Origin: Colwellia hornerae
GTDB taxonomy: Bacteria; Pseudomonadota; Gammaproteobacteria; Enterobacterales; Alteromonadaceae
Direction of reading: 5' to 3'
Assembly (NCBI RefSeq): GCF_007954355.1
Contig: NZ_VOLR01000011.1
Location: forward strand, 32,620-96,619
Length of the DNA stretch: 64,000 bases
The notes under the pieces: model-generated
The model's input: the letters and a program-made list of their open reading frames with translations, nothing else
Told to the model about the DNA's origin: nothing
Database searches by the model: none
Part shown: positions 14,275-30,299 of the stretch, piece by piece
How the letters are laid out: each line of letters opens with the position of its first letter
Position numbering within the stretch: the first letter of the stretch is position 1
Translations under genes and position numbers: made by a program

Positions 14275-14312
14275 TGATATATTGTTAACATAAAAATAGG
14301 CAAAAGAGCTGA

Positions 14313-15119
14313 ATGATGAAAATTTTATTCTTGGCTAATAAAGATTTAGCGAGTAATTTCGCGCTGAATAAATTACTACCAAAGGTCTGTAAAAACCATG
14401 AGGTTCATCTGTGGTTATCCGCTAAAGTAGGTAAGATCAGTGTGTTACCTACGCCATTAAAGACGCTAAAGTTTTTCGAGCAAGACTTGTTTAACCAACT
14501 GCTAAGTCCGCTAATTCCTAGGAATAAAAGTAATAACAATACTTATAGAAACTTTGATGGCTTTAGTGTCTTTTTAAAGTCAGCGATTCTAGACGTCAAT
14601 CAAATCAATTCGCCTGAGATGATTAATGATTTAAAAGCATTGGCGCCTGAACTTATTGTTTCGATACGCTTTGGTGGCATTCTAAAGGAAGCGGTCATTA
14701 ATATTCCTACCAAAGGCATTATTAATCTGCACTCTGGCATATTACCTAAGTATAAAGGCGTGATGGCGACGTTTTGGGCAATGAAAAATAACGACGATAA
14801 AATAGGTACTACACTGCACACCATTGACGATGGTTCGATAGATACAGGACAAATAATCAAGACTTCTACCGTACTGGTTAATAGAGAGAAATCTTATTTA
14901 TGGCATGTGCTTGAGCTTTATAAGCAAGGTGCAATCGATATATTAGCGGCTATTGAAACGCTTGAAAATGATGAGTTACTTTGTTCTCAGCCACAAGAAA
15001 AGAGTGATAGCTATTTTACCTTTCCAAGCGAAAATGAATGTCTAGACTTTGAAAGAAGTGGCTTTAAAATCACCGATGAACAAGAGTACATTGAATTTAT
15101 ACAACAACATTATCTGTAA
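14313..15119 (+). CDS. Formyltransferase-family protein (Fmt N-domain-like)
   Basis: INLHSGILPKYKGVMATFWAMKN...GTTLHTIDDGSIDTGQII matches the formyl-transferase catalytic region (N, H, D triad context). 39 bp downstream of the S9 peptidase. Confidence 0.55.
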   Translation: MMKILFLANKDLASNFALNKLLPKVCKNHEVHLWLSAKVGKISVLPTPLKTLKFFEQDLFNQLLSPLIPRNKSNNNTYRNFDGFSVFLKSAILDVNQINSPEMINDLKALAPELIVSIRFGGILKEAVINIPTKGIINLHSGILPKYKGVMATFWAMKNNDDKIGTTLHTIDDGSIDTGQIIKTSTVLVNREKSYLWHVLELYKQGAIDILAAIETLENDELLCSQPQEKSDSYFTFPSENECLDFERSGFKITDEQEYIEFIQQHYL

Positions 15120-15250
15120 GTATAATAAAGGCTAATTTAACGAATATATTGTTGTCCGGTTAAACCAATCAAGTCCAACGCTTCATTATATCTTAAGTAT
15201 TATTGGTTACTTTAATAGGTTAACTATCCGCTTGATACTGTGTCGTTGCT

Positions 15251-15288
15251 ATCAATAAAAAAGGGGAGCATTATTAATGCTCCCCTTG
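15251..15288 (-). terminator. Rho-independent terminator for the first subtilase gene (minus strand), possibly bidirectional
   Basis: Perfect hairpin aaggggagcat-tatta-atgctcccctt. On the minus strand it is followed by TTTTTTATT. It lies between convergent genes. Confidence 0.75.
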
Positions 15289-15326
15289 GTCTTTACGATA
15301 AATATAATCGCATAATTTATGATGTT

Positions 15327-17696: not shown

Positions 17697-18129
17697 CTGA
17701 TATAAACTCCATCGTTTATTTTTACGTTTAATTTGAACGTTTGCCGAGGCTACCTTCAACGTATTTTATTATGTATTGCTTTAATGAGTGAAAACCCATG
17801 CCAAAAATAATGGCTTGTTTACGATGTTTTAACTAGCAATTGACAGACTGTTTTTGCTAATTAAACGACGTTTTTATTTTTTTTAATATTTTATCTTACT
17901 GATAAATATAGTTTTGTCTGTTTTTTGTCGCCTTTGTGCGAAAAGCTGTCGCTATATTACTAGGGATTATTTGCTGAGTTGATATTATCGAATTATGCAA
18001 GATGCACGATACTGATTTAAGCAAAGATAAATAAGTCATCATCAAGATAGTAAGGACTACTCAATACAACATAACGTTGATAATTAAAACAATATAAACA
18101 ACGCCCCTATATAAGAGAGAGTGGAACAT

Positions 18130-19977
18130 ATGAAAGCTTCTAAATTTACGACATCAATTATTGCCTTAGCCGTTACCGCAGCATTTTCAGCACACGCTGC
18201 CGATGATCGATACATTATTAAAGTAGACGAAAGTAAGAAAGGCCTTGTTAAAGCACTTGCTAAAAAATTAGGCGGCGAATTAAAAGTCGATGGCAAAGGT
18301 TTTATCGCGGCTTCATTCGCTGGAAAAGATTTAAGCCAAGTTAAAGGTTTATTAAACAACCCACATATTCAAATGATTGAAGAAGATCAACGCCGTCTAC
18401 CACTTTCTGTTTATAGTGATACCGCAGGCAACCCTGCAACAACACAACTTACTCCTTATGCTGTTGTTCAATCTCAAGCGGACCAAGTTAACTTTAACGC
18501 TGGCGCAGGCATGAAAGTATGTATCATCGATTCAGGTTTAGATCGCTCTAACCAAGATTTTATCTGGAACAACATTACAGGTACTAACGATTCAGGCACA
18601 GGGAACTGGGACGAAAACGGTGGTCCACACGGAACTCACGTAGCTGGTACTATTGGTGCGGCAGATAACGGTTTTGGTGTGGTTGGTATGGCACCAGGCG
18701 TTGATATGCACATTGTAAAAGTATTTAACGAGGCAGGTTGGGGATATTCTTCTGACTTAGCTTACGCAGCAAACATCTGTTCAGGCGCAGGCGCTAACAT
18801 CATTAGCATGAGTTTGGGCGGCGGCGGTGCTAACAGCACTGAAGAAAACGCCTTTAAAGCTTTTACCGATTCAGGTGGTTTAGTGGTAGCGGCAGCAGGT
18901 AACGATGGTAATAATGTCCGTTCATTCCCAGCAGGCTATTCATCGGTAATGATGGTTGGTGCGAACGACAATAACAATGCTATTGCAGACTTCTCACAAT
19001 TTCCAAGCTGTACGTCAACAACGACAACAGGCAAAGGTAAAAATCGCACGACAACGACAACGACAGACGAAACTGTTTGTGTTGAAGTAACAGCTGGCGG
19101 TGTTGACACGTTGTCAACTTACCCTGCAGGAATGGCAACAAGTGCTTCAATGAGTGCCGATGGCGTAGCTTATGCTTCATCTGCTATGGAAAATTCAGGT
19201 TCGGTTACAGCGAACACTTTCTACATGGGCACTGCTGAGTCAACTAATTCAGGCGCAAATGGTAACGTTTGTCTGATTGACCGTGGCGTAATTTCTTTCC
19301 ATGACAAAGTACAAAATTGTCAAAACTCTGGTGGTGTTGGTGCGGTTATCATTAATAATGAAGCAGGTATGTTATCAGCGACATTAGGTGATACGAACGC
19401 GACAACTATTCCTGCAGTAGGCGTAGCACTAGAAGACCGTGCAGCATTATTAGCGTCAAATACAGTAGATATAGCGATTGGCGCTAGCGATTATGGTTTC
19501 ATGAGTGGTACTTCAATGGCGACACCTGCAGTATCAGGTATGGCTGCATTAGTATGGTCTAACCATAATGGCTGTACAGGTACAGAAATTCGTGATGCAT
19601 TAAAAGCAACGGCTGAAGATAATGGCGCTGCAGGCCACGATGACTACTTTGGTCACGGTATTGTTAAAGCAAAAGCGGCTAATGATTACTTAACTGCTAA
19701 TGGTTGTGGTGGTGGTGTTACACCTCCTCCAGTAGAAGGTGGTGATATTACTGCTGACGCATCAGGATACAAGGCTAAAGGTAAAAATAAAGTTGACGTA
19801 ACTTGGTCAGGTGCAGCTACTTCAAGTGTTGACATTATTCGTAACGGTTCTTTAAGAACAACAACGGCAAACGATGGCGCTTATACCGACAGTTTTAGAA
19901 CGTCAGGTTCATTTACTTATAAAGTATGTGATCAAGGAACAAGTAATTGTTCTGCGGACATTACCGTTAATTTCTAG
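18130..19977 (+). CDS. Secreted S8 subtilisin-like serine protease (second paralogue) with PA-like insert and poly-Thr linker
   Basis: Catalytic blocks DSGLD, HGTHVAGTIGA and GTSMATPAVSGMAALV. A signal peptide begins at MKASKF (ATG at 18130, GAGAG RBS-like upstream). A TTTTGKGKNRTTTTTTD low-complexity stretch is present. Confidence 0.85.
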   Translation: MKASKFTTSIIALAVTAAFSAHAADDRYIIKVDESKKGLVKALAKKLGGELKVDGKGFIAASFAGKDLSQVKGLLNNPHIQMIEEDQRRLPLSVYSDTAGNPATTQLTPYAVVQSQADQVNFNAGAGMKVCIIDSGLDRSNQDFIWNNITGTNDSGTGNWDENGGPHGTHVAGTIGAADNGFGVVGMAPGVDMHIVKVFNEAGWGYSSDLAYAANICSGAGANIISMSLGGGGANSTEENAFKAFTDSGGLVVAAAGNDGNNVRSFPAGYSSVMMVGANDNNNAIADFSQFPSCTSTTTTGKGKNRTTTTTTDETVCVEVTAGGVDTLSTYPAGMATSASMSADGVAYASSAMENSGSVTANTFYMGTAESTNSGANGNVCLIDRGVISFHDKVQNCQNSGGVGAVIINNEAGMLSATLGDTNATTIPAVGVALEDRAALLASNTVDIAIGASDYGFMSGTSMATPAVSGMAALVWSNHNGCTGTEIRDALKATAEDNGAAGHDDYFGHGIVKAKAANDYLTANGCGGGVTPPPVEGGDITADASGYKAKGKNKVDVTWSGAATSSVDIIRNGSLRTTTANDGAYTDSFRTSGSFTYKVCDQGTSNCSADITVNF

Positions 19978-20022
19978 ATTTAAACGTTTTAGTACAAGGA
20001 AGTAGTCTCAATTAACTAGTTG

Positions 20023-20062
20023 ATATCCAGTTCATTATTTGAGCTGGATATTTTTATTTTTG
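20023..20062 (+). terminator. Rho-independent terminator after the second subtilase
   Basis: Stem atatccag...ctggatat followed by ttttatttttg. Confidence 0.7.
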
Positions 20063-20270
20063 CAACATGTAATAACTTATAGCTATATATATATATCCAT
20101 AAGTATTGCATGTTAGGTGTCGTTTGGTTTATGTTCACAATCAATGTGTATTTTGTCACTAATGATTAAAAACTGTTTTAATGTACAATTTTTAAAATTT
20201 GAATGACAAACATTAAGTTAAACCACCCTGACGTTTTTAAAAGATGTAACGGGAAAAGGGGATAAATATT

Positions 20271-21971
20271 TTGAATATTTCTGTAAAAAACATTATAAAA
20301 CCACTCTCACTGCTAGGGCTTATTAGTCTTACCGCTTGGTTTATCAATACCAGTATAGATAAAAATGCTGGCGGACAAGAAAAGTCGTATATTATTTCGG
20401 CAAGCAGCTATCAATTATTACAAACAGAGTTAGCCTCACTTAACGTTCAACCAACGCATCAATTAGCTATCATCAATGCTGTTGCCGTTTCCCTTAATAT
20501 TGAACAGTTAGCTCAGTTACATGCACAGTTAGACATTCAGGTTACTGAAAATTATAAAGTAGAAATGTCAGGTGGTAATGCCTGGGGTAAACGTAAATGG
20601 CAGCCAAAGTCTGTCGTGAATGACTTGATTGAAGCCTCTGCGGCGCATTCGGCCTACAATTTTGGCGATGGGGTAACCATTGGCTTTTTGGATACTGGGC
20701 TAGATCAACTAGAAGGAACCTCTTCAGGTCTTGGTTTATCGACTGATTTATACGGAAAAGATAAGTTCTGGGGAACTTATGACGCGATAAATAATAGTAT
20801 TAGTAACTATAGTAATGAAGAAAGTGGCCACGGTACTCATGTCGCCAGTATTGCCGGTAACGCCGATTATGATGTTTACGGTAAAGTTTATGGTGTTGCT
20901 CCCAATGCTTCGTTAGTCGGCATTAAAGCTTTTGATGCCGAAGGCAAGGCAACCTATGCAGATGTAATTCGTGGTATTGATTGGGCGTTACAAGTTAAAG
21001 ATCAAATCAATTTAAAAGTATTGAATATGTCGTTTAGCGGGCCTGCTCGTTCTTACTACTGGGAAGATCCACTAAACCAAGCGGTAATGAAAGCATGGCA
21101 AGCAGGTATCGTTGTAGTTGCTTCTGCAGGCAACAGCGGTCCTGATCCGATGACGATTGGCGTACCTGGTAATGTTCCTTATATAATTACGGTAGGTGCG
21201 ATGACAGATAATTACACTGCCTCTTATGTAAACGACGACAAAGTAGCAACTTTTAGTGCCGCAGGCCCGACAGTGGAAGGCTTTGTTAAGCCAGAAATTG
21301 TTGCGCCCGGTGGTCATCTATCAGGTTTGATGGCTTTTGATACGCAAATAGTTCAAGACCATCCTGAATTTCACGATGGTGGTCGTTATTTTGAAATGTC
21401 AGGCACCTCACAAGCGGCTGGCGTAATATCAGGTGTTGTCGCACTGATGTTAACGCAAGATCCAACGCTAACACCGGATGAAGTTAAATGTCGCTTAATG
21501 GACAGTGCTCATGCGGCATTCAATAATAGTGGTGAGTTAGCCTATAGTGTTTTTCAGCAAGGTTCCGGCATGGTTAATGTTGCGGATGCTTTACTCAGTA
21601 CCGCTTCAGGCTGTGCGAATCAAGCTTTAGATATTGCCCAAGATTTAGCAGGCAGTGATCATTTCTTTGGACCAGCTAACATTAATAGCGATGGTAATTT
21701 TTATGTTGAAGGTTTAGGCGATGAATATGTCTGGAAATTAAATGAAAGCAACCTTGATGGTGATACGATTATCTGGCGGATGAATTATGCTGTAAATGCT
21801 TTAGATTGGAAAAACACAGCCTCTACCGATACGATAATTTGGCGAATGAATGTAGAAACAGATACCATAATTTGGCGGATGAATTTCGAAACGGATACCA
21901 TAATTTGGAGAATGAGTGTAGCGGATAGCTCTACAGGTATCGATGTTAATAATTGGGTTGAACAGCAATAA
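20271..21971 (+). CDS. S8 subtilisin-like serine protease (third paralogue) with C-terminal TDTIIWRMN tandem peptide repeats
   Basis: Blocks DTGLD, HGTHVASIAG and GTSQAAGVISGVVALM. TTG start as in the ORF track, with AAGGGGA upstream. The C-terminus carries five DTIIWRM(N/S) repeats. Confidence 0.8.
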   Translation: MNISVKNIIKPLSLLGLISLTAWFINTSIDKNAGGQEKSYIISASSYQLLQTELASLNVQPTHQLAIINAVAVSLNIEQLAQLHAQLDIQVTENYKVEMSGGNAWGKRKWQPKSVVNDLIEASAAHSAYNFGDGVTIGFLDTGLDQLEGTSSGLGLSTDLYGKDKFWGTYDAINNSISNYSNEESGHGTHVASIAGNADYDVYGKVYGVAPNASLVGIKAFDAEGKATYADVIRGIDWALQVKDQINLKVLNMSFSGPARSYYWEDPLNQAVMKAWQAGIVVVASAGNSGPDPMTIGVPGNVPYIITVGAMTDNYTASYVNDDKVATFSAAGPTVEGFVKPEIVAPGGHLSGLMAFDTQIVQDHPEFHDGGRYFEMSGTSQAAGVISGVVALMLTQDPTLTPDEVKCRLMDSAHAAFNNSGELAYSVFQQGSGMVNVADALLSTASGCANQALDIAQDLAGSDHFFGPANINSDGNFYVEGLGDEYVWKLNESNLDGDTIIWRMNYAVNALDWKNTASTDTIIWRMNVETDTIIWRMNFETDTIIWRMSVADSSTGIDVNNWVEQQ

Positions 21972-21983
21972 CTTATTAACACT

Positions 21984-22013
21984 AGCCACTGTGTCCACAG
22001 TGGCTTTTTTATT
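21984..22013 (+). terminator. Rho-independent terminator after the third subtilase
   Basis: agccactgtg-tc-cacagtggct followed by tttttatt. It lies inside the N-terminal extension of the next ORF in the ORF track, which argues that the next gene starts later. Confidence 0.75.
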
Positions 22014-22068
22014 ACCTATATTTCTTACATTAAATTTCAATATCTCATTACTCTATAAGAGCCCTCTT

Positions 22069-25000
22069 GTGAAAAAAACACTCCTTTTATTATTAATTAT
22101 CTTTAGCTGTAATATTTCGGCACAAGAAGTAAAACTGTTTAAAAACTTTGGTATTGATAACCCGATGTCATACAACTTTGTGAGAACCATCGCTCAAGAT
22201 GAAGATGGCTTTATGTGGTTTGGCTCTTCGGAAGGCTTAGACCGTTTTGATGGTCACCAAACGTTAAGTTTCCATCATGATAGTGCTCAACCACACTCAT
22301 TAAGCTCTAATGTTATTAGCCGTATCCTTATTGATAAGCAACAAAGACTTTGGGTTGGTACCTTCGGTGGCGGCTTAAATTTATATCGGGAGAAAAGCCA
22401 AGATTTCCTCCATTTCACCAGTAAGACAACAAATACTACGCTGACTAATGATACCGTAAATGCCTTATTTGAAGACAGTGAAGGTAAAATTTGGATCGCT
22501 ACCGAAAATGGGGTAAATATTCTCAGTACTGATGAAGGGAAATGGTCAACTCAACACATTTTTCAAGAATTAGGCAACCCGAATAGCCTGACCCATAATG
22601 TTGCGCTGTCAATTATTGAAACCCGTGAGCAAGAAATTTGGGTAGGTACTAATGGTGGTGGGATTTCGGTATTTGATCTACAGGGAAATTTTATTAAATC
22701 GATTAAATATGGCGATCAAAACAGTGCGACTTATATTAATAAATTTGTCAGTAGTTTGTATTTAGATATTAATGGAGATATTTGGATAGGCACAGTTGAT
22801 AGTGGCTTATTAAAATATACCCCGAGTACAGAGCAGTTTATTCACTATCAAAATAATATAGATAATCAGTTAACGATTAGTAGCAATGCAATAAGCAGTA
22901 TTTATCAAGACTCAGCACAAAATATTTGGATTGCTACTGACAATGGTCTATCTATTTATGATTATAAAACTAACCATTTTAGTCGCTATAATAACTCTCC
23001 TAATAACCCTTACAGTATAAGTAATGATTTTGTGCTTACTTTTTATGAAGACAACCATAAGATGATGTGGGTAGGAACTTTTTCAGGCGTTAATCGATGG
23101 GATCCTAATATGGCGACCTTTCGACAATATAGTACGCAAACAAATCCTATTTTAAAAAATCACAATGTCACTAGTTTTACGCAGTTTAATCAAGGAAATG
23201 TATATTTTAGTACCTACAGTGGTGGAATTTATCAGTTGTCAGAAGTGGATAATTCAATATCACCTGTCGCTTTTAATAATGAATTTTTAGAATATAGAAT
23301 CATGGATTTGTTTGCCGATGGCAATATATTATGGATTGGGACGCGAGGCTCTGGATTGTATTCAGTCAATTTAACGACTAATAAAGTGACTGAATATAGG
23401 CATGACGAAGATGAATCTTCTATTTCAGCCAATAGTATTACCGATATTATTAAAGATAGACATGGTAATATTTGGGTCTCTACTTTTCATCAAGGACTCA
23501 ATTTACTTAACAAAAATGGTACTTTTAAACGCTTTATAAGTAATAAGTCAAACCTAGAGAAAGGACCGGGAAGTAACCATGTTGTACAATTACTAGAGGA
23601 TGATCAAGGTTTTATTTGGTTGGCTACCTTTGGTGGTGGTCTTAGTCGTTTTGATCCTAGCCTTGAAACGTTTCGACATTTTAGTCATGAGGCAAATAAC
23701 CCTAATAGCCTTTCTGATGACTTCACTTGGATAATGTTGCTTGACCATGAGCAAAACCTTTGGTTCGGAACCCAGTCTTCTGGTTTGAGTATGTTAAGTC
23801 AAGAAAATCGTTACAATAATAATTTTTCATTTACTCACCTTAATACCAAAGATGGTATGAAAAGTTTAACCGTTTACGGTATTACTCAAGATGTTTATGA
23901 TGATATTTGGTTTAGTACCAATAAAGGCATTTCTCGTTATTCAACCAGTGATAAAAGTTTTAAGCACTTTAACCTGACTCATGGCTTAGTTGACTTAGAA
24001 TACACCCATTCTGCGGTATTTAGTTCAAAGGGTAGCACTTTATATTTTGGTGCGGGTAAAGGAATGAATAGTATTAATCCAGAAAAAATTAATACCAGCC
24101 TTTTGGCTCCAGAAGTACGTTTAACCAGTATTTTAAAGTTAAATGAGCCCATGCCACTTGGCAGTAAATTATCTAATTTAAGTCAGTTGGAATTTGATTA
24201 CAGTGATCAACTGATCTCCTTTGAATATGTCGGTTTAAACTATGCAAATCCAGAATCAACACGTTATAAATATCGTTTATTAGGCTTTGATGAAGAGTGG
24301 ATAGCTGCCGGTAAGTCTCGAAGAGCCACTTATACCAATTTACCGGCGGGTAGTTATCAGTTACAGGTTATTGCCGGTAATAGCGACAATATCTGGAGTG
24401 AACCTAGCCTGTCCCTTAATATTACTGTTCATCCTGCGCCGTGGAATACTTGGTGGGCCTATTTGTTGTATGCGATGGCCGTTGCGACAATTTTACTCGT
24501 CTATTCTCGCTTTTTAAATCGGAAATTGTTATTTGAACAACAACAAAAGTCTTACCTTGAAAAACAAGTAAAAGAGAAAACGCAAAAGCTACAATCGCAA
24601 AATAGCGAGCTTGAACATGCCAATGTATTACTAGAAAAATCGGCAACGGTAGACAAAGTAACTGGGGTGCGAAGTCGCCGTTATCTTGATATTTATATTG
24701 AGCAAACTAGTCAGTTAATGAATCAAATTCATCAAAATATTTTACCGGTACAGCGAGGCACCTTACCTCGTCTTTACGTATTAATGGTTCAGGTTAATGA
24801 GTTAAGCAATGTCAGTAATAGCCAGTTGATTAACATTACTGACTTATTACTGTTTAGCCGTAATAGCGATGATCTAGTGGTACGCTGGTCAGATGATACC
24901 TTTGCTGTCATCGGTTATGAAAAAGATAACAATGCCAGCGAATTAGCGGCACGGCTTGCCAGTAAATTTGAAAAACAATTCGACAATAAAATATCGATGA

Positions 25001-25227
25001 ATATTGCTTATTCTTTTTATCCGTTTAATCGAGAGCAACCTATGGAAATATCGTGGGATCAAGTCAGTGTGATGATTGAGCTTGGTTTGACGTTAACCAG
25101 CGAAGAGCCGGCGATTGCTTGGCTTGGCTTATGTGAGCCTAAGATACAGCCATTTAGCTACTTAGCAGTGGTTCAAGGCGCTGATCTGGCTACACTTAAG
25201 CACAACATCCAAATTAAACAAGGCTAG
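22069..25227 (+). CDS. Periplasmic two-component-regulator propeller (Reg_prop x many) + Y_Y_Y domain, one TM helix, cytoplasmic degenerate GGDEF domain
   Basis: Repeated ..W.GT.gGL..yd beta-propeller units. A TM helix (WAYLLYAMAVATILLVY), then a coiled coil. The C-terminus is GGDEF-like but the motif is replaced by RWSDDTFAVIG. The likely start is the in-frame GTG at 22069 (VKKTLLLLLIIFSCNISAQ signal peptide) downstream of the upstream terminator. The ORF track extends it to 21943. Confidence 0.7.
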   Translation: MKKTLLLLLIIFSCNISAQEVKLFKNFGIDNPMSYNFVRTIAQDEDGFMWFGSSEGLDRFDGHQTLSFHHDSAQPHSLSSNVISRILIDKQQRLWVGTFGGGLNLYREKSQDFLHFTSKTTNTTLTNDTVNALFEDSEGKIWIATENGVNILSTDEGKWSTQHIFQELGNPNSLTHNVALSIIETREQEIWVGTNGGGISVFDLQGNFIKSIKYGDQNSATYINKFVSSLYLDINGDIWIGTVDSGLLKYTPSTEQFIHYQNNIDNQLTISSNAISSIYQDSAQNIWIATDNGLSIYDYKTNHFSRYNNSPNNPYSISNDFVLTFYEDNHKMMWVGTFSGVNRWDPNMATFRQYSTQTNPILKNHNVTSFTQFNQGNVYFSTYSGGIYQLSEVDNSISPVAFNNEFLEYRIMDLFADGNILWIGTRGSGLYSVNLTTNKVTEYRHDEDESSISANSITDIIKDRHGNIWVSTFHQGLNLLNKNGTFKRFISNKSNLEKGPGSNHVVQLLEDDQGFIWLATFGGGLSRFDPSLETFRHFSHEANNPNSLSDDFTWIMLLDHEQNLWFGTQSSGLSMLSQENRYNNNFSFTHLNTKDGMKSLTVYGITQDVYDDIWFSTNKGISRYSTSDKSFKHFNLTHGLVDLEYTHSAVFSSKGSTLYFGAGKGMNSINPEKINTSLLAPEVRLTSILKLNEPMPLGSKLSNLSQLEFDYSDQLISFEYVGLNYANPESTRYKYRLLGFDEEWIAAGKSRRATYTNLPAGSYQLQVIAGNSDNIWSEPSLSLNITVHPAPWNTWWAYLLYAMAVATILLVYSRFLNRKLLFEQQQKSYLEKQVKEKTQKLQSQNSELEHANVLLEKSATVDKVTGVRSRRYLDIYIEQTSQLMNQIHQNILPVQRGTLPRLYVLMVQVNELSNVSNSQLINITDLLLFSRNSDDLVVRWSDDTFAVIGYEKDNNASELAARLASKFEKQFDNKISMNIAYSFYPFNREQPMEISWDQVSVMIELGLTLTSEEPAIAWLGLCEPKIQPFSYLAVVQGADLATLKHNIQIKQG

Positions 25228-25277
25228 CTGGAGTTTTAGCTTAACAAACGAAGACCAGGCTACTATTGCGTAGCTGG

Positions 25278-25340
25278 TTTTATGTGAACCTAAGGCATAA
25301 GCATTTAGCTACACTTAAGCACAACATCCAAATTAAACAA
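25278..25340. repeat. Degenerate direct duplication of the last ~100 bp of the preceding gene (with an internal deletion)
   Basis: ttatgtgaacctaaggcataagcatttagctacacttaagcacaacatccaaattaaacaaggttagc at 25278-25340 matches ttatgtgagcctaagatacagccatttagctac...ctacacttaagcacaacatccaaattaaacaaggctagc at 25130-25230. Confidence 0.8.
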
Positions 25341-25363
25341 GGTTAGCCGGAGTAGCTTTCTGG

Positions 25364-28363
25364 TTAGCTTTTAATGAACTGTTGTTGATATTGTTTTGGG
25401 GTGCAATTAAATGACTCTTTAAAACATCGACCAAAGTACGTTTGTGATGAAAAACCAACATCTAGGGCGATTCTGCCAATTTTAGAACCGTTTTGCAGCA
25501 GTATTTGTGCTTTCGCTAGGCGGAACTCTTTAATGAAATTATTAGGTGTTGTTCCCAAGGTTACTTTCATTTTTCGTTGCAGTTGACGCTCACTCATTGC
25601 CATATTACTGGCTAGCTCTTGAATACCTAAATCAGTTTCCAAGTACATTTTGGCGACAATAGTTTCTAACTTTTCTATAAACTTTTCATCAACGGATAAT
25701 ATTGCACTTTCGCTTGGGGTTAACTGCGACACTTTCTTTACGCTACTTTCTTTTTGTTGTTCTTTTTGATGATCCCTAAATTTATGTAAATAGTTTTGCT
25801 GCAACTGCTTACGATTTTCAATTAAATTTTCAATACGGATCAGTAATTCTTGTTGATTGAATGGCTTACTTAAATACTCATCCGCTTGCAAATTCAGGCC
25901 ATGCAGGCGGCTGTCTAGGTCTGAGCGCGCGGTCAGTAAAATAACAGGAATATGTGAGGTGAGTTCATTTCCTTTTAATTGTTTGAGCACTTCAAAACCG
26001 TCAATACCGGTCAGCATAATATCGCAGACGATAAGGTCAGGAATATATTCTTCAGCTAGAATTAGCCCCTGTTCACCACTAGTCGCCAATAAACAATGAT
26101 GTTGTTGTTCAACTACACGTTTAATATGGTTTTGCATATCAAGGTTATCTTCAATAACCAAAACGACATTTTGTAGGTGATTTTTAGCTTTAGTTTTATT
26201 ATTATTTTGTTCTAGCAAGAGTGAAGAAACTTCGCTTTCTGAGACACTCATCGGTACTTGGGCTTCAATCGCAACCGATTCTTTTGCAGGAATAGATAAA
26301 GAAAATTTACTGCCTTTATTATACTCACTGACTAAATTGATACGCCAGTTATGCGCTTTTACCAATTCATTAACTAGTGATAAACCAATACCAACACCAA
26401 AGACAGCATGATTTTTTTCATCATCGGCTCTTTGAAATCGTTCGAAAATCTTAACTTGTGATGCTTGATTAATACCAATGCCAGTATCGGTAATATCTAG
26501 AATAATATTATCTTGCTCGGCATAAGCGCAAACCTTGATACTGCCACCTGCAGGTGTATATTTAATCGCGTTAGCCAGTAAGTTGAAAATTATTTTTTCA
26601 AAACCTTGAGCGTCACACTCTAGCCAAAGATCATCAGAAATATCAGCGTCAAAGCTTAAATCATTTTGCTTAGCTAAGCGTGAAAATGAATCAATTGGCA
26701 TAGCCATTAGTTGGCTTAACCGATAAGTAGACAGCGAAAGCTTAGGGTTATCGGTCAGGCGCGAAAGCTCTAAAAGCTGTTCAACCATTCGCACTAACCT
26801 TAAACCATTGCGCTTAGCGGTGGTGAGCTCTAATCCTTCTTCTTTACTTTGAGCTTTTAGTAAGTACTGATCTAAAATGCCATTAATAATCGTTAACGGC
26901 GTTCTAAATTCATGAGAAATATTAGCGATAAATTTATCTTTTAAATCTAAAGTTTGTTTTTCAGCTAATTTTCGTGCGGTCAAATTAATAAAGGTAATAA
27001 CAATAAGCGGCTTTTCTTCGCGGTCTGCCCACTGTAATTCCGCCTGTACTGGAAATTCGGTGCCATCTGTTCTGCGCGCCATACACTCTACTGAAATACC
27101 AATATCTTTGCGTTGTAGTGCATAAACATTACTTTTAAAACCAAAAAAGTAATGCATGGTATCTTCAGATGAAAATAAGGTACTAACATTTTTGTCGGTT
27201 AACTCATGTTCTAAGCTCTGGAACATTTGCACGGCTGCAGGATTTGACGATAATATTTCACCGTCAATTGAAGTGGTTAAAATGGCATTACTTGATGCGC
27301 GAACAATGGCCTTATCTTCACTATTGAGGATAGAACTGATTAATTTATGATTCTTTTGTGTTAACGCTTTATTTTCTTTTTGCTGAGTAAAAACTTGTTG
27401 CTTAAAGTCCAAGGTGTGCTTTCTTTTATTGTAAGCAATTAGCACAACCAAAATAAAAGCAATAACACCCCAAATACCAATAACAAAAGACTGCCAGAAA
27501 GAATTGGTTATGTAGAACGTACCAAGTTCTAAACCAGCAACATGAATACTAAAAATAATACTCACCAGTAATAAAATGTAAAGTTCGGGATAGGTGTCTT
27601 TGGCGATAGGTTTAGCTGGGTTTTGTGTATTTAAAGAGGCACTAGCTGCAAAGATAAGCGCGCAATAAGGAATTAGCGCCACTAAACTTTTTATATAATC
27701 ATCGCTGTATAGTGCTTGACCTTGAATGAGAAAATAATAATTAACGTTAGCCATTAATAAGGCAAGTGAGCCAATAAATAGTGGCCAATAAATAGCGCGC
27801 CAAAACTTTTCTCGACAAAAAATAACACAGCTCATTAGTCTGATAAAAATAAGACCAGAAATGGTGATGTGAAATAATAATGACGGTAATAATCTGTGGT
27901 CTAATGCTTTTGAAAATTCTTCTGGCAATAAAACGAAATAACAAAAACAGGTTACGGTAAAAAATAGTGCCGGCATCCGACCAGCAATATATTTATTGAG
28001 AGGGGTTTCGCTGAGGTGTGGGTTGGTTTCTATGGCTAATAAGATAAAGAAGTAACTAAATAATGAGAAAAAATCTTGCAGTACCGGCGTGGTATTAATG
28101 TAGTCACCGGCAAAAATAATACCCGAAATAAGATCAACAATTATAGCGAGAGAGAAAAACTGCCAGAATAACTTTAATGAACGTGACTTGGTCTGTAGAT
28201 AGCTAAAAATAACAAAGAATACTGCAATAGCCTGCAACAAAATAGCGGGCAGCGATAACAAAAAAGAAGATGTAATATTCAAAGCGCTAGCTATCGTGGT
28301 ATAGGGTAATAGGGATAATATTATGGAGATAAATAAAAGGGTTAATTTATTAAAATATAGCAA
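25364..28363 (-). CDS. Hybrid sensor kinase: 7TM (7TMR-DISM-like) + PAS + HisKA/HATPase + receiver + AraC-type HTH
   Basis: About 8 TM helices at the N-terminus. H-box FIANISHEFRTPLT. N, G1 and G2 ATPase blocks (DTGIGI, GVGIGLSL). Receiver VLVIEDNLDM..D. The C-terminus GFSSQTYFGRCFKESFNCTPKQY is AraC-like. Confidence 0.9.
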   Translation of the reverse strand: MLYFNKLTLLFISIILSLLPYTTIASALNITSSFLLSLPAILLQAIAVFFVIFSYLQTKSRSLKLFWQFFSLAIIVDLISGIIFAGDYINTTPVLQDFFSLFSYFFILLAIETNPHLSETPLNKYIAGRMPALFFTVTCFCYFVLLPEEFSKALDHRLLPSLLFHITISGLIFIRLMSCVIFCREKFWRAIYWPLFIGSLALLMANVNYYFLIQGQALYSDDYIKSLVALIPYCALIFAASASLNTQNPAKPIAKDTYPELYILLLVSIIFSIHVAGLELGTFYITNSFWQSFVIGIWGVIAFILVVLIAYNKRKHTLDFKQQVFTQQKENKALTQKNHKLISSILNSEDKAIVRASSNAILTTSIDGEILSSNPAAVQMFQSLEHELTDKNVSTLFSSEDTMHYFFGFKSNVYALQRKDIGISVECMARRTDGTEFPVQAELQWADREEKPLIVITFINLTARKLAEKQTLDLKDKFIANISHEFRTPLTIINGILDQYLLKAQSKEEGLELTTAKRNGLRLVRMVEQLLELSRLTDNPKLSLSTYRLSQLMAMPIDSFSRLAKQNDLSFDADISDDLWLECDAQGFEKIIFNLLANAIKYTPAGGSIKVCAYAEQDNIILDITDTGIGINQASQVKIFERFQRADDEKNHAVFGVGIGLSLVNELVKAHNWRINLVSEYNKGSKFSLSIPAKESVAIEAQVPMSVSESEVSSLLLEQNNNKTKAKNHLQNVVLVIEDNLDMQNHIKRVVEQQHHCLLATSGEQGLILAEEYIPDLIVCDIMLTGIDGFEVLKQLKGNELTSHIPVILLTARSDLDSRLHGLNLQADEYLSKPFNQQELLIRIENLIENRKQLQQNYLHKFRDHQKEQQKESSVKKVSQLTPSESAILSVDEKFIEKLETIVAKMYLETDLGIQELASNMAMSERQLQRKMKVTLGTTPNNFIKEFRLAKAQILLQNGSKIGRIALDVGFSSQTYFGRCFKESFNCTPKQYQQQFIKS

Positions 28364-28483: not shown

Positions 28484-29014
28484 TCACTGGCTATCTATAA
28501 GGCTAAGTAAAGAAGCTAACTTTTCAATTTTTATATTCGACAATTGGCGATAATCAAAATAGGGACAGACCACTAAATTTTGAGCCTTATCAATAGCAAA
28601 CTCGTCATCTAACCAGATAAAATTAGCCGTTAGCTGGCCTGTTGCTAGCAAATGCTTGGCGTAGGTTTTTCCACAAATAATATGCAGAGTTTGCTTAGCG
28701 GTTGATAACAGAGGAGGAGAAAACAATAAAGCCGTTTGAGAATCTTGTTGCAGTAAAAAGCGCTCTCGATATTTTTGCCAAGTTGGTGCAAGGGTTGAAT
28801 AGGCGAATTGTGCTTTATCGAGTGCGTAAAGCAACTTTGCATAAACATTGAAAACTTTTCGCCAACCATTGCCGCAAGCTTGATTAACCATCTCTATTTC
28901 GCCCAAGGTTAGCGGCGATAGAGAAGATAATTGCTGATATTCAAGCATACTTGGTTTATTACCAATATAAACGGCAATGGTAAATTTTGAGCAACCTACA
29001 CCAATATTTTTCAC
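28484..29014 (-). CDS. Hypothetical protein (176 aa), third gene of a tight three-gene operon
   Basis: No recognisable motif. 22-bp gaps to its neighbours. Confidence 0.45.
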   Translation of the reverse strand: MKNIGVGCSKFTIAVYIGNKPSMLEYQQLSSLSPLTLGEIEMVNQACGNGWRKVFNVYAKLLYALDKAQFAYSTLAPTWQKYRERFLLQQDSQTALLFSPPLLSTAKQTLHIICGKTYAKHLLATGQLTANFIWLDDEFAIDKAQNLVVCPYFDYRQLSNIKIEKLASLLSLIDSQ

Positions 29015-29035
29015 GTGATATTACTGAACAACTGT

Positions 29036-29458
29036 CTATTCATTAGGTAAGGCATTATCTAAGGTTTTTAAAGAACGTAAAAATAAACCTAAGCCACCGA
29101 TGGCTAAAACAAGTATTACAATTAAATCAAAAGAACTCATGGTCTTAAAAGTAAACCTTATTGAAGATATTACCCCAAAGATTAATCCTGATATTGAGCC
29201 AATAGCTAACACCCAGCCTAAAATATTTTTACTGTTATAAAAAATAAGGCCGACACCAAACATGAAAGGGATCATTATCATGCCACTGGTTACATTATAG
29301 TTGCCGCCCATGGCGGAAAAACCATACAGGCGTATGCCCATGCCAAAACTAGAAGTCACTGTGATTGAATTTAGTAGCATATAAAAACCACCACACATCA
29401 TAATGATGCCAATAAAAAAGTGACTTAAGCCACCTGAAGTTCCACCTGCTCCTTTCAT
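29036..29458 (-). CDS. Hypothetical integral membrane protein (140 aa, about 4 TM, Gly-rich)
   Basis: Hydrophobic, Gly/Met-rich helices. Operonic spacing. Confidence 0.45.
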   Translation of the reverse strand: MKGAGGTSGGLSHFFIGIIMMCGGFYMLLNSITVTSSFGMGIRLYGFSAMGGNYNVTSGMIMIPFMFGVGLIFYNSKNILGWVLAIGSISGLIFGVISSIRFTFKTMSSFDLIVILVLAIGGLGLFLRSLKTLDNALPNE

Positions 29459-29479
29459 GGGTATTCCTTATGATCTTTG

Positions 29480-30028
29480 TTATTTTTCGGCTGAGTAGGG
29501 ATCTTCAGCAAGAAGATAAGCTCTTAAATCGGCTTTGTTTGGCTGCTGATATAGCCACTCTCTAAGGGCTTTAACTTTCGCATAATTTTCTTCACCAAAT
29601 TTATCTTGGTATATTTCTGCAAAGTTTTCTTTCGTACTATTAATACGAATGTTACGTTGCCAATGTGCGGTTAGTACCGTATTTAAGGAGCCAGCTAAAT
29701 TTTCTTTTTTGAGTAATTCCCATTCACCTTTGTCTAACCAAACACCACCGACATTTGCGCTGTAGTCGATACGATGATCTGTTGAGGCAGATAGTCGAAA
29801 TTTACGCATGATTGTACCTGTTACCGGGCATAACATTGCTTGTTTAGTTTCAACAACTTGACATTGAAGGTCGTTATCAAAAGAAAACTGCGGATTACGT
29901 TCCTTCCAAGCGACATAATCTTCAATTAAGATCCAATGACCACTACAATTTGAGCAAGTATGTGCTCTAAACAACCCTTCGATAAAACTGGGTGTTAACT
30001 CACCCTGCTTACAACTAGTACATTTCAT
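29480..30028 (-). CDS. Tandem zf-TFIIB-like zinc-ribbon protein (second ribbon degenerate)
   Basis: CTSCKQGEL...CSNCSGHWILIEDYVAWKE, then CPVTGTIM...VGGVWLDKGEWELL, which resembles the C-x2-C...GGvWLD.gEl zinc-ribbon family. The start was chosen at MKC (ATG at 30028) with an AGGGAG RBS 6 nt upstream. The ORF track extends it to 30079. Confidence 0.55.
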   Translation of the reverse strand: MKCTSCKQGELTPSFIEGLFRAHTCSNCSGHWILIEDYVAWKERNPQFSFDNDLQCQVVETKQAMLCPVTGTIMRKFRLSASTDHRIDYSANVGGVWLDKGEWELLKKENLAGSLNTVLTAHWQRNIRINSTKENFAEIYQDKFGEENYAKVKALREWLYQQPNKADLRAYLLAEDPYSAEK

Positions 30029-30299
30029 TATTATCTCCCTATTAAATGTTATCTTTGTAAATTTTACGTAAACCATCATATAATCATTGCTTGATATAAG
30101 TCACGAGTAAAATCAATTAAATCAGAATACTGTAGGCTTTTATTTTTATGATTTAATGTAAACAATATGCTAATTTGGTTTTTTGAAATTTTATAAAAAC
30201 TGTATTGTATTGACATATTATGTCACAGGTGTATGGTAAATATAAAGAATAAACACCATAATAATAGCGGGTGTTCGCTATGCGCTTTAAGGATAAACA

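What the first reader, a model, noticed from the sequence alone, without database searches (positions are those of the whole stretch)
22069..28363. Split sensory system: periplasmic Y_Y_Y propeller fused to a degenerate GGDEF, convergent with a 7TM-PAS-HK-REC-AraC hybrid kinase
Y_Y_Y/Reg_prop sensors are normally the periplasmic input of hybrid HK-AraC regulators. Here the propeller protein instead ends in a GGDEF-like domain whose active-site motif is RWSDDTF, so it is probably catalytically dead and may act as a c-di-GMP receptor or interaction domain. The HK-REC-AraC output sits in a separate convergent 7TMR-DISM protein. This may be a two-protein signalling relay controlling the adjacent protease island.
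Basis: partly seen in the sequence, partly recalled or inferred. Interest (0 to 1): 0.5.

Follow-up and report, generated by a model that had tools for sequence, protein, structure and literature searches.

The report
Split propeller sensor with dead GGDEF
A marine Colwellia carries a conserved three-gene signalling unit (a secreted-type protease with a tryptophan-repeat tail, a periplasmic propeller sensor ending in a dead cyclase domain, and a sensor-less kinase/transcription factor) in which the protease tail and the propellers are swapped together between strains, as matched signal-receptor pairs are.

Summary
Gene A (22069-25227, +) encodes signal peptide, Reg_prop propellers, Y_Y_Y, one TM helix, a coiled coil and a GGDEF-fold domain. 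That domain has lost the GGDEF motif (SDDTF), the DxD/Lys of strand 1 and, through an 8-residue deletion, the guanine-binding segment. Its RxxD I-site is not in the canonical register.

Gene B (25364-28363, -) is a hybrid kinase: about 10 TM segments, PAS, HisKA, HATPase, REC and AraC. Its membrane part is not 7TMR-DISM.

Co-conservation holds. The convergent kinase is present in 55 of 58 orthologous loci, and an S8 protease lies directly upstream in 55 of 55.

Three things go beyond the finding:
- Homologues at about 30% identity keep RWGGDEF and the same protease partner, so the dead domain is a derived state of one monophyletic Alteromonadales clade.
- Every partner protease ends in a periodic Trp-repeat array.
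- The protease tail plus the propellers form a sharply bounded hypervariable cassette. The dead GGDEF half instead co-varies with the kinase (rho 0.91).

The best reading is a split HTCS-like relay in which the dead GGDEF domain acts as an adaptor to the kinase and the input is tied to the protease tail. Physical contact, the ligand and the target genes are all inferred.

The parts
20271..21971 (+). S8 subtilase ('S8b'), 566 aa. It has an N-terminal hydrophobic signal or anchor, a propeptide-like region and an intact catalytic triad (D141, H187-H190 box, S380). It is the constant upstream partner of the sensor gene.
   Evidence: Pfam Peptidase_S8, E 6.9e-49. Triad motifs found and invariant in 31 orthologues. 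Present upstream in 55 of 55 degenerate-clade loci and 16 of 18 active-clade loci.
21726..21971 (+). C-terminal Trp-repeat tail of S8b: YVWKLN, then 4 copies of DTIIWRM(N/S) with an 11-residue period, then the conserved terminal motif VNNWVEQQ. It matches no Pfam or NCBIfam family.
   Evidence: Sequence. A 33-bp DNA tandem array at 21828-21921. No family hit. Periodic Trp arrays (period 6-14, 3-12 copies) are present in all 71 partner proteases.
21984..22005 (+). Terminator-like hairpin (9-bp stem followed by a T run) between the S8b stop codon and the sensor start codon.
   Evidence: An equivalent hairpin with compensatory stem changes occurs in 48 of 69 loci.
21500..24200 (+). Hypervariable, recombining cassette: the post-catalytic C-terminus and Trp tail of S8b, plus the signal peptide and both propellers of the sensor. 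The boundaries are approximate.
   Evidence: Identity to the close relative L042 drops from 84-97% to 59-72% only in this stretch. Within it the window is closer to L002 (75-87%). The same trough appears in three further pairs of loci.
22069..25227 (+). Sensor protein, 1052 aa: signal peptide (1-20), Reg_prop propellers (about 21-720), Y_Y_Y (724-788), TM helix (795-817), coiled coil (818-858), dead GGDEF-fold domain (859-1020) and a tail (1021-1052).
24643..25128 (+). Degenerate GGDEF-fold domain. SDDTF replaces GGDEF (motif RWSDDTF at nt 24883-24903). VQV replaces DxD. An 8-residue deletion removes ND..GH..GD. The I-site region reads SRNSDD (nt 24856-24873).
   Evidence: alignments; fold; 65% mean identity within the clade against 52% for the propellers.
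25265..25353 (+). Decayed partial tandem duplicate of the last ~120 bp of the sensor gene. It fills the convergent intergenic spacer and is absent from the close relative L042.
   Evidence: Direct repeats 25184-25234 / 25303-25353 (92% identical) and 25114-25161 / 25265-25312 (77% identical). Single copy in L042.
25364..28363 (-). Hybrid kinase and transcription factor, 999 aa. Nucleotide ranges: ~10-TM domain 27428-28363; PAS 26978-27313; HisKA 26753-26941; HATPase 26282-26614; REC 25832-26164; AraC HTH 25379-25615.

Best explanation
This is a conserved three-gene signalling module.

The parts:
1. An exported, catalytically intact S8 subtilase whose C-terminus carries an array of short Trp-centred repeats.
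2. An inner-membrane sensor. It has HTCS-type propellers plus Y_Y_Y in the periplasm, one TM helix, a coiled coil and a GGDEF-fold domain. That domain is a pseudo-enzyme: it has no A-site, no metal or GTP ligands and no canonical I-site.
3. A convergent ~10-TM PAS-HisKA-HATPase-REC-AraC hybrid kinase with no periplasmic domain.

Most likely mechanism:
- The propellers read a periplasmic cue tied to the partner protease, either its Trp-repeat tail or peptides cut from it.
- The signal passes through the TM helix and coiled coil to the dead GGDEF domain.
- That domain acts as a protein-protein adaptor on the cytoplasmic PAS/kinase part of the hybrid kinase.
- The kinase phosphorylates its own receiver and switches its AraC output on or off at the neighbouring protease genes.

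In evolutionary terms, an ancestral protease-coupled propeller diguanylate cyclase already paired with this kinase. It then lost c-di-GMP synthesis in one Alteromonadales clade and kept the domain as a scaffold.

Shown here: domain anatomy, loss of catalytic residues, purifying selection on the dead domain, synteny, and two linkage blocks with a breakpoint at the membrane.

Inferred: the contact between the dead GGDEF domain and the kinase, the identity of the ligand, and the regulated genes.
For: Anatomy:
- Domain composition.
- Both halves are homologous to HTCS parts: 4a2l/3v9f at E 8e-80 and 12aw at E 4.7e-49.

Dead enzyme:
- Family-internal alignment against RWGGDEF relatives.
- The motif [SA]x[DN]xF is kept in about 120 orthologues and 60 genome loci.
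- The GGDEF fold is retained.

The domain is not decaying:
- Within the clade, mean identity is 65% for the dead GGDEF domain, 66% for the TM helix and 66% for the coil, against 52% for the propellers.
- There are long runs of invariant residues.

Synteny:
- The kinase is convergent within 10 kb in 55 of 58 loci, and directly adjacent in 44.
- S8b is upstream in 55 of 55 loci.
- The nearest active-GGDEF clade (L066, L067, L072, L078, L080) has the same convergent HK-REC-AraC.
- Other active clades carry a convergent GGDEF-sigma54 activator instead. A dedicated transcription regulator is therefore part of the module's ground plan.

Two linkage blocks:
- Pairwise-identity correlations over 51 loci are 0.91 for sensor cytoplasmic half against kinase, and 0.58 for sensor periplasmic half against its own cytoplasmic half.
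- Nucleotide profiles show a cassette bounded by the S8b tail and the end of the propellers in four independent pairs.
- The tail repeat type follows the propeller allele.

Precedent for a c-di-GMP-enzyme protein acting on HTCS proteins by contact, independent of catalysis: RpfG with HtsH1-3 (PMC8463545).
Against: - No experiment or model shows contact between the two proteins.
- The 0.91 correlation could come from physical linkage alone. The two coding regions abut, so they tend to be co-transferred.
- The kinase's membrane domain is its least conserved part (39% identity), which argues against a conserved TM-TM interface.
- Three loci with ample flank lack the kinase (L001, L034, L035). In 11 others, further genes lie between sensor and kinase.
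- A conserved terminator-like hairpin separates S8b from the sensor gene, so they need not be co-expressed one to one.
- Tail and propeller coding regions are only ~100 bp apart. Their co-inheritance could therefore also be linkage rather than matched specificity.
- The AlphaFold model of S8b failed (pLDDT 40.7), so nothing is known about the structure of the tail.
Confidence: 0.45

Rival explanations
1. c-di-GMP receptor with inside-out signalling, LapD-like. The dead GGDEF domain binds c-di-GMP made elsewhere, for example by the PAS-PocR-GGDEF-EAL protein at 1282-5238. Through the TM helix it changes how the periplasmic propellers hold or release the S8 protease by its Trp tail, and so controls periplasmic or secreted proteolysis.
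For: - The layout parallels LapD-LapG (PMC3032553): a membrane receptor with a degenerate GGDEF domain encoded next to an exported protease.
- LapD's GGDEF domain is among the structural hits (6pwk).
- Asp at -6 is invariant, and an Arg sits one residue out of register (RNxxD).
- Co-diversification of tail and propellers fits a binding pair.
Against: - The canonical I-site Arg (-9) is an invariant Asn. The Arg at -10 is lost in L053 (Cys). The closest active relatives have no RxxD at all.
- There is no EAL domain, which is the c-di-GMP-binding element in LapD.
- The ancestors were active cyclases with the same protease partner, which implies outside-in signalling as the ground state.
- This reading leaves the tight co-variation with the kinase unexplained.
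Confidence: 0.12
2. Neighbours without a relay. The hybrid kinase senses its own membrane or PAS cue and regulates the protease genes. The propeller protein works separately with S8b, for example as its anchor, chaperone, substrate or inhibitor. The dead GGDEF domain serves only for dimerisation or stability. Synteny then reflects a shared regulon, not contact.
For: - The kinase has its own candidate inputs: a 10-TM domain and a well conserved PAS domain (72% identity).
- Genes are inserted between the two in 11 loci, and the kinase is absent in 3.
- Most active-GGDEF relatives pair with the protease but not with this kinase.
- Linkage alone can produce the correlation.
Against: - Convergent adjacency has been kept across at least eight genera, and in a sister clade at ~30% identity.
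- The dead domain, TM helix and coil are more conserved than the sensing domain. That is hard to explain for a mere stabiliser.
- The recombination breakpoint falls at the membrane boundary in four independent pairs rather than between the genes.
- Together the two proteins reconstitute the full HTCS domain set.
Confidence: 0.25
3. The propellers sense an exogenous oligosaccharide or other environmental ligand, as Bacteroides HTCS do. The S8 protease is merely a regulated target. The hypervariable cassette reflects adaptation to different substrates.
For: - Strong homology to the glycan-sensing HTCS periplasmic domains 4a2l and 3v9f. That these domains bind glycans is my own knowledge of BT4663.
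- LchP's Reg_prop/Y_Y_Y domain was likewise guessed to sense unsaturated disaccharides (PMC6182147).
Against: - No carbohydrate-active enzymes or transporters are in the conserved neighbourhood. The only universal partner is the protease.
- The left boundary of the variable cassette lies at the start of the protease tail, not at the start of the sensor gene.
- The tail repeat type tracks the propeller allele.
Confidence: 0.15

Closest known systems
Bacteroides hybrid two-component systems (HTCS; e.g. BT4663, PDB 4a2l/4a2m)
   Same: The periplasmic Reg_prop propellers plus Y_Y_Y are clearly homologous (E 8e-80). The HisKA-HATPase-REC-AraC output set is the same. The REC-AraC part best matches an HTCS structure, 12aw.
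   Different: Here the system is split over two convergent genes. The sensor half ends in a dead GGDEF domain instead of a kinase. The kinase half has its own ~10-TM and PAS N-terminus. The conserved partner is a protease, not a polysaccharide utilisation locus.
Reg_prop/Y_Y_Y-linked c-di-GMP enzymes (Lysobacter LchP, PMC6182147; Xanthomonas oryzae GdpX2/GdpX3, PMC6637768)
   Same: The same periplasmic sensor type is fused through one TM helix to a GGDEF-family domain. The ~30%-identical relatives found here (L059-L080) have intact RWGGDEF.
   Different: LchP has PAS-PAS-GGDEF-EAL and is an active phosphodiesterase. The window protein has no catalytic residues and no EAL domain. The papers I searched do not mention a protease partner or an HK-AraC partner for those proteins.
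RpfG with HtsH1-3 in Lysobacter enzymogenes (PMC8463545)
   Same: A protein with a c-di-GMP-enzyme domain binds the cytoplasmic part of HTCS-type proteins and regulates through them independently of catalysis. This is the same logic proposed here for the dead GGDEF domain and the hybrid kinase.
   Different: RpfG is a soluble REC-HD-GYP protein and still an active enzyme. The HtsH proteins carry their own propellers. In the window the propellers sit on the pseudo-enzyme partner.
LapD-LapG inside-out signalling (PMC3032553)
   Same: An inner-membrane protein with a degenerate GGDEF domain is encoded next to an exported protease. Communication across the membrane is by one protein.
   Different: LapD binds c-di-GMP through its EAL domain, has a HAMP domain and a small periplasmic domain, and its partner LapG is a cysteine protease. 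Here there is no EAL or HAMP domain, the periplasmic part is a propeller pair, the protease is an S8 subtilase, and there is no canonical I-site.
Degenerate-GGDEF c-di-GMP receptors (PelD, PopA, CdgA; my own knowledge)
   Same: The GGDEF fold is retained with a lost A-site, and the domain is kept under selection.
   Different: Those receptors keep the RxxD I-site in register. Here position -9 is Asn, and the nearest Arg is out of register and not universally conserved.
Pherotype loci of Gram-positive peptide quorum sensing (agrBDCA, comQXPA; my own knowledge)
   Same: There is a sharply bounded hypervariable cassette. It covers the signal-bearing or signal-processing gene end and the receptor's sensing domain. 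The receptor's cytoplasmic part and the regulator stay conserved. Alleles are exchanged between lineages.
   Different: No released peptide has been shown. The 'precursor' would be the tail of the protease itself. The organism is Gram-negative, the receptor is a periplasmic propeller, and the output goes through a pseudo-cyclase and a hybrid HK-AraC.

Membership tests
Active diguanylate cyclase (GGDEF, PF00990) | GGDEF alpha/beta fold | tested here: met
   The AlphaFold model (pLDDT 78.8) hits WspR, GcbC, PleD and DgcZ. TM-score normalised to the target is about 0.7 for isolated domains. The Pfam hit is weak at 26.6 bits.
Active diguanylate cyclase (GGDEF, PF00990) | GG[D/E]EF active-site motif | tested here: not met
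   SDDTF aligns to GGEEF/GGDEF. [SA]x[DN]xF is found in all 60 clade loci.
Active diguanylate cyclase (GGDEF, PF00990) | Metal-binding Asp and Lys of strand 1 (DxDxFK), and the guanine-binding Asn/Asp (ND..GH..GD) | tested here: not met
   MVQVNEL replaces l.DlD.fK, and an 8-residue deletion removes ND..GH..GD, relative to active family members.
Degenerate-GGDEF c-di-GMP receptor (I-site type) | RxxD with Arg at -9 and Asp at -6 from the first G of GGDEF | tested here: not met
   Asn932 at -9 is invariant and Asp935 at -6 is invariant. Arg931 at -10 is out of register and replaced by Cys in L053.
Degenerate-GGDEF c-di-GMP receptor (I-site type) | Measured c-di-GMP binding | not testable with these tools
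   Needs ITC or DRaCALA on residues 859-1052.
Hybrid two-component system (HTCS) | Periplasmic Reg_prop propellers plus Y_Y_Y | tested here: met
   Pfam. PDB 4a2l and 3v9f at E 8e-80 and 6e-78.
Hybrid two-component system (HTCS) | HisKA, HATPase, REC and AraC-type HTH | tested here: met
   All four are in gene B. PDB 12aw at E 4.7e-49. His484 and Asp781 are present.
Hybrid two-component system (HTCS) | All modules in one polypeptide | tested here: not met
   There are two convergent genes separated by a 136-bp spacer. The same split is seen in 55 loci.
7TMR-DISM receptor | 7TMR-DISM_7TM membrane module and an extracellular DISMED domain | tested here: not met
   No Pfam hit at E<=10 for residues 1-330. 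About 10 hydrophobic segments, with no loop longer than 22 aa. Only 33 related representative clusters, all N-termini of hybrid kinases without an annotated membrane domain.
LapD/LapG-type inside-out system | HAMP-GGDEF-EAL receptor with c-di-GMP bound at the EAL domain, and a LapG-type cysteine protease partner | tested here: not met
   No HAMP or EAL domain. The partner is an S8 serine protease.
Pherotype-like signal/receptor locus | Hypervariable cassette limited to the signal-bearing region and the receptor's sensing domain, with incongruent phylogeny | tested here: met
   (four pairs of loci). Nearest-neighbour incongruence.
Pherotype-like signal/receptor locus | A released peptide that activates the cognate receptor allele only | not testable with these tools
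   Needs peptidomics of supernatant or periplasm, and binding or reporter assays.

The most novel reading that the evidence does not exclude
The module is a Gram-negative, protease-borne peptide signalling system with specificity groups. The S8 subtilase carries its own multi-copy signal, the Trp-repeat array. This array is presented to, or cut off for, the cognate periplasmic propeller receptor. Tail and propellers co-diversify and are exchanged as one cassette, like agr or com pherotypes. The ancestral output was c-di-GMP synthesis. In Colwelliaceae and Pseudoalteromonas it has been rewired, through a pseudo-cyclase adaptor, to a hybrid HK-AraC regulator.
Probability: 0.2. Interest if true: 0.85.

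Novelty: new variant of a known kind. Interest (0 to 1): 0.62.

Why it matters
No ligand is known for any Reg_prop/Y_Y_Y sensor outside the Bacteroides glycan sensors. The proteobacterial Y_Y_Y-GGDEF proteins are catalogued as having 'unknown function'.

This locus supplies a concrete and testable candidate input: the Trp-repeat tail of a constant protease partner. It also supplies natural allele swaps that predict which tail matches which propeller.

It is also a clean natural example of an enzyme-to-pseudo-enzyme transition in second-messenger signalling:
- the same three-gene module exists with a live cyclase in sister clades and a dead one here;
- the dead domain is more conserved than the sensing domain.

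If the adaptor reading is right, GGDEF domains can transmit signals to histidine kinases without c-di-GMP. Genome counts of 'diguanylate cyclases' would then overstate c-di-GMP capacity; several orthologues here are annotated 'diguanylate cyclase'.

If the module controls the S8 proteases, it bears on how cold-marine heterotrophs regulate extracellular proteolysis.

Tried and rejected
- AlphaFold model of S8b from 31 orthologues. Mean pLDDT was 40.7, with the tail below 35. It says nothing about the tail's structure or about docking into the active site.
- The search for homologous proteins with the kinase N-terminus (residues 1-470). It returned only 11, mostly partial, hits. This was useless for the reverse test of whether kinase homologues always sit next to a sensor, so that direction remains untested.
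- The exhaustive representative search with the kinase membrane domain found only 33 clusters. Pfam on ten of them shows other hybrid kinases with unannotated membrane N-termini. No named domain family emerged.
- 7TMR-DISM and MASE3 were considered and rejected. There is no Pfam hit. The NCBIfam MASE3_PAS_HK hit scores 219.8 bits against a cut-off of 560 and covers residues 171-712, which takes in the PAS and kinase domains.
- Pfam and NCBIfam on the S8b tail gave nothing.
- Literature searches for Y_Y_Y plus GGDEF plus propeller, for 'regulator propeller' plus diguanylate cyclase, and for degenerate GGDEF plus subtilisin found no description of this module.
- Phylogenetic footprinting upstream of S8b found conserved blocks. 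I could not assign them to AraC binding, so they are reported only in passing.
- An operon of S8b and the sensor was considered. A conserved terminator-like hairpin between them makes simple co-transcription uncertain.
- A conserved TM-TM interface with the kinase was considered. It is disfavoured because the kinase membrane domain is only 39% conserved, and the PxPWxTWWAY start of the TM helix is family-wide rather than specific to kinase-linked members.
Full report
**Organism and coordinates**

The window is from Colwellia hornerae: gene A is 100% identical to a protein of that species. The two ORFs named in the finding are exactly where stated. Gene A runs 22069-25227 (+), with a GTG start, and encodes 1052 aa. 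Gene B runs 25364-28363 (-) and encodes 999 aa. They converge on a 136-bp spacer.

**Gene A anatomy**

Pfam finds eight Reg_prop stretches (E 3.6e-52), Y_Y_Y at residues 724-788 (E 8.8e-20), and a weak partial GGDEF match at 859-972 (26.6 bits, profile positions 1-115 of 161). Hydropathy shows an N-terminal signal peptide and a single TM helix at 795-817.

The periplasmic part is clearly homologous to the solved sensor domains of Bacteroides hybrid two-component systems: 4a2l at E 8e-80 and 3v9f at E 6e-78.

An AlphaFold model of residues 788-1052, built on 15 orthologues (pLDDT 78.8), shows one long helix covering the TM segment and coiled coil, followed by a compact alpha/beta domain. Foldseek matches that domain to WspR, GcbC, PleD, DgcZ and the GGDEF domain of LapD. 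TM-scores normalised to the target are about 0.7 for isolated GGDEF domains, at 10-20% sequence identity. The domain therefore has the GGDEF fold.

**Is the domain dead?**

Yes. The most useful comparison is inside the family. Among 80 genome loci recovered with a profile of gene A, the ~30%-identical relatives (L059-L080) carry RWGGDEF or RWGGEEF. All 60 closer loci carry RW[SA]x[DN]xF, as do nearly all of the 120 database orthologues.

Aligned to the active relatives, the window protein shows these losses:
- SDDTF in place of GGDEF.
- MVQVNEL in place of the DxDxFK strand, so both metal-binding Asp residues and the Lys are lost.
- An 8-residue deletion that removes the ND..GH..GD guanine-binding segment.
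- Ser in place of the Asn of the LTGLxNRR turn.

Neither cyclase activity nor GTP binding is plausible.

**The I-site**

Active relatives L060, L061, L068, L069, L074, L076 and L077 have RxxD with Arg at -9 and Asp at -6. In the window protein, -9 is Asn932 (invariant) and -6 is Asp935 (invariant). The Arg (931) sits at -10, and it is Cys in Pseudoalteromonas locus L053. The nearest active clade (L066, L067, L072, L078) has no RxxD at all. A canonical I-site receptor role is therefore not supported, although binding cannot be excluded without an assay.

**The dead domain is under selection**

Within the degenerate clade, mean pairwise identity is 65% for the GGDEF-like domain, 66% for the TM helix and 66% for the coiled coil. 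It is 52% for the propellers. Long invariant runs are present, for example DKxTGVxSRRYLDIYIEQ. This is a maintained pseudo-enzyme, not a decaying one.

**Gene B anatomy**

The domains are PAS (351-462), HisKA (475-537), HATPase_c (584-694), REC (734-844) and HTH_18/AraC (917-995). The phospho-acceptor His484 and Asp781 are present. The REC-AraC part best matches a solved 'hybrid two-component system protein', 12aw, at E 4.7e-49.

The N-terminal 312 residues contain about ten hydrophobic segments with no loop longer than 22 aa, so there is no periplasmic domain. They match no Pfam family even at E<=10. An exhaustive search of 1.84 billion representative proteins finds only 33 related clusters. 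Those tested are N-termini of other hybrid kinases without an annotated membrane domain.

**Co-conservation**

In the degenerate clade, 55 of 58 loci with enough downstream sequence have the kinase convergent within 10 kb, and 44 have it directly adjacent, under 600 bp away. The clade includes loci labelled Colwellia, Cognaticolwellia, Thalassotalea, Litorilituus, Psychrosphaera, Algicola, Thalassomonas and Pseudoalteromonas. It is monophyletic on a neighbour-joining tree.

Its closest active-GGDEF relatives (L066, L067, L072, L078, L080) also have a convergent protein of the same architecture at 28-36% identity. Pfam on the L066 and L072 proteins confirms HisKA-HATPase-REC-AraC. The pairing therefore predates the death of the cyclase.

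**The constant partner is a protease**

The S8 subtilase immediately upstream (20271-21971) is present in 55 of 55 degenerate-clade loci and 16 of 18 active-clade loci. The latter include loci labelled Acidobacteriota and Thermoanaerobaculia.

It has an intact catalytic triad, an N-terminal hydrophobic signal or anchor, and a propeptide-like region. Every one of the 71 partner proteases ends in a periodic array of short Trp-centred repeats followed by a conserved terminal W[VIT]xxx motif, usually preceded by Nx. Examples:
- the window has 4 copies of DTIIWRM(N/S), period 11;
- L066 has 9 copies of DGVLWR;
- L060 has a run of EGMTWN repeats (12 evenly spaced Trp);
- L061 has about 10 copies of DGYLWS.

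The period is 6 in all but two of the active-clade partners, and 7, 11, 12 or 14 in the degenerate clade. The tail matches no Pfam or NCBIfam model. In the window it is a 33-bp DNA tandem array.

A terminator-like hairpin follows the protease stop codon (21984-22005). Equivalent hairpins, with compensatory stem changes, occur in 48 of 69 loci. Expression of protease and sensor is therefore probably uncoupled or attenuated.

**Other versions of the module**

In L059, L060, L069 and L075, where the sensor has an active GGDEF with an I-site, the convergent ~1000-aa gene is a GGDEF plus sigma-54 activator. In L059 and L069 a REC-GGDEF-EAL gene directly follows the sensor.

The ground plan is thus protease, then propeller sensor, then a dedicated transcription regulator. 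Output goes through c-di-GMP in some lineages and, by inference, through contact in the window's lineage.

**Mosaic structure**

Colwellia sp. MB3u-41 (L042) is 84-97% identical to the window at the DNA level across 22 kb. The exceptions are the spacer bin 25123-25422 (0.56), which reflects the window-specific 3'-end duplication, and one sharply bounded trough of 59-72%. The trough runs from about 21.5 kb, where the protease tail begins, to about 24.2 kb, at the end of the propellers.

Inside that trough the window is closer to C. psychrerythraea isolate L002 (75-87%). Outside it the window is far closer to L042. The same trough, with the same boundaries, appears in three unrelated pairs: L016/L018, L019/L021 and L047/L005.

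Over 51 loci, pairwise identities give these rank correlations:
- sensor cytoplasmic half against kinase: 0.91;
- sensor periplasmic half against its own cytoplasmic half: 0.58;
- tail repeat type against propellers: 0.53;
- tail repeat type against cytoplasmic half: 0.33;
- tail repeat type against kinase: 0.31.

Nearest-neighbour lists show repeated cases of 88-97% identical cytoplasmic halves joined to 51-58% identical propellers. In those cases the tail motif follows the propeller allele.

There are two linkage blocks: [protease tail + propellers] and [TM helix, dead GGDEF + kinase]. The breakpoint falls at the membrane.

The distance from the periplasmic block to the cytoplasmic half is similar to the distance from the cytoplasmic half to the kinase, so distance alone does not explain the difference. 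Adjacency nevertheless contributes, and the data cannot separate linkage from co-adaptation.

**Interpretation**

The best-supported reading is a split, HTCS-like relay. A periplasmic propeller sensor has an input tied to the partner protease's tail. Its dead GGDEF domain serves as an adaptor to a kinase/AraC regulator that has no periplasmic sensor of its own.

Precedent exists for a c-di-GMP-enzyme protein acting on HTCS proteins by contact and independently of catalysis: RpfG with HtsH1-3 (PMC8463545). Reg_prop/Y_Y_Y sensors on c-di-GMP enzymes are also known, in LchP (PMC6182147) and in GdpX2/3, the latter listed with 'unknown function' (PMC6637768).

Contact, ligand and target genes are inferred. 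Rivals that remain open:
- a LapD-like c-di-GMP receptor, weakened by the I-site data;
- independent neighbours sharing a regulon;
- an exogenous glycan ligand.

**Novelty**

The domain families are all known, and degenerate GGDEF domains are common.

Four things appear not to be described in the literature I could search:
- the constant protease partner with a Trp-repeat tail;
- the pherotype-like cassette;
- the live and dead cyclase versions of one module;
- the splitting of an HTCS domain set over two genes.

I rate it a new variant of a known kind, with a minority chance (about 0.2) that it is a new type of protease-borne peptide signalling.

Noticed in passing
window 21726-21971 (and the 3' ends of the upstream S8 genes in L001-L080): The S8 protease upstream of the sensor ends in a periodic Trp-repeat array. 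The window has 4 copies of DTIIWRM(N/S). Elsewhere the array has 3-12 copies with a period of 6-14, e.g. DGVLWR, EGMTWN, DGYLWS. A conserved terminal W[VIT]xxx motif, usually preceded by Nx, follows. There is no Pfam or NCBIfam match.
   Followed up: yes
window ~21500-24200; also L016/L018, L019/L021, L047/L005: There is a sharply bounded hypervariable, recombining cassette made of the protease tail plus the sensor's propellers. Identity falls from 84-97% to 59-72% against a close relative, and phylogenetic affinity switches inside the cassette.
   Followed up: yes
window 25265-25353 (copies of 25114-25234): The convergent intergenic spacer is a decayed partial tandem duplication of the last ~120 bp of the sensor gene (92% and 77% identical segments). 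The close relative L042 has a single copy.
   Followed up: partly
window 21984-22005; equivalent positions in 48 of 69 loci: A terminator-like hairpin directly follows the protease stop codon, about 60 bp before the sensor start. It is conserved with compensatory stem changes (AAGCCACTG...CAGTGGCTT variants). It may be an attenuator that sets the protease:sensor ratio.
   Followed up: partly
L059:15109-18177(-), L060:14734-17730(-), L069:15071-18133(-), L075:13325-16357(-); L059:13228-15114(+), L069:13254-15047(+): In modules related to this one that have an active GGDEF, the convergent regulator is a ~1000-aa GGDEF plus sigma-54 activator fusion. L060 is such a module in a Colwellia psychrerythraea genome that also carries a degenerate-clade locus (L009). 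In L059 and L069 a REC-GGDEF-EAL gene follows the sensor. This is a c-di-GMP-wired version of the same ground plan.
   Followed up: partly
window ~20110-20250 (upstream of the S8b start): Sequence blocks are conserved across about 46 orthologous loci: TGTTTAGTTTATGTT, TTTGTAAC..TTAACA and CACCCTAATGTTT. They are candidate promoter or AraC-type operator elements. The S8a terminator at 20022-20052 is also conserved.
   Followed up: partly
window 1282-5238 (-): A 1318-aa protein with multiple PAS domains, PocR, GGDEF and EAL, all with strong Pfam scores. It is a probably active c-di-GMP enzyme about 17 kb from the module.
   Followed up: no
window 12337-19977: The rest of the protease island: an S9 prolyl-oligopeptidase-family gene (12337-14274), an S8 + PA + 2x PPC protease (15327-17759, minus strand) and an S8 + PA protease (18121-19977). 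The last two are syntenic in most Colwelliaceae loci but not beyond.
   Followed up: partly
L034 (JBLGCB010000124.1, labelled MAG: Phenylobacterium sp.): A Colwelliaceae-type locus (56% identical sensor, RWSEDTF) sits in a bin labelled as an alphaproteobacterium. This is probably a binning error rather than horizontal transfer.
   Followed up: no
window 28484-30079 (-): Three small genes lie downstream of the kinase start on the same strand: DUF6942, a 4-TM protein without a family, and a zinc-ribbon protein. They are conserved next to the kinase only in the window's closest relatives (L010, L042, L044), so they are not part of the module.
   Followed up: partly
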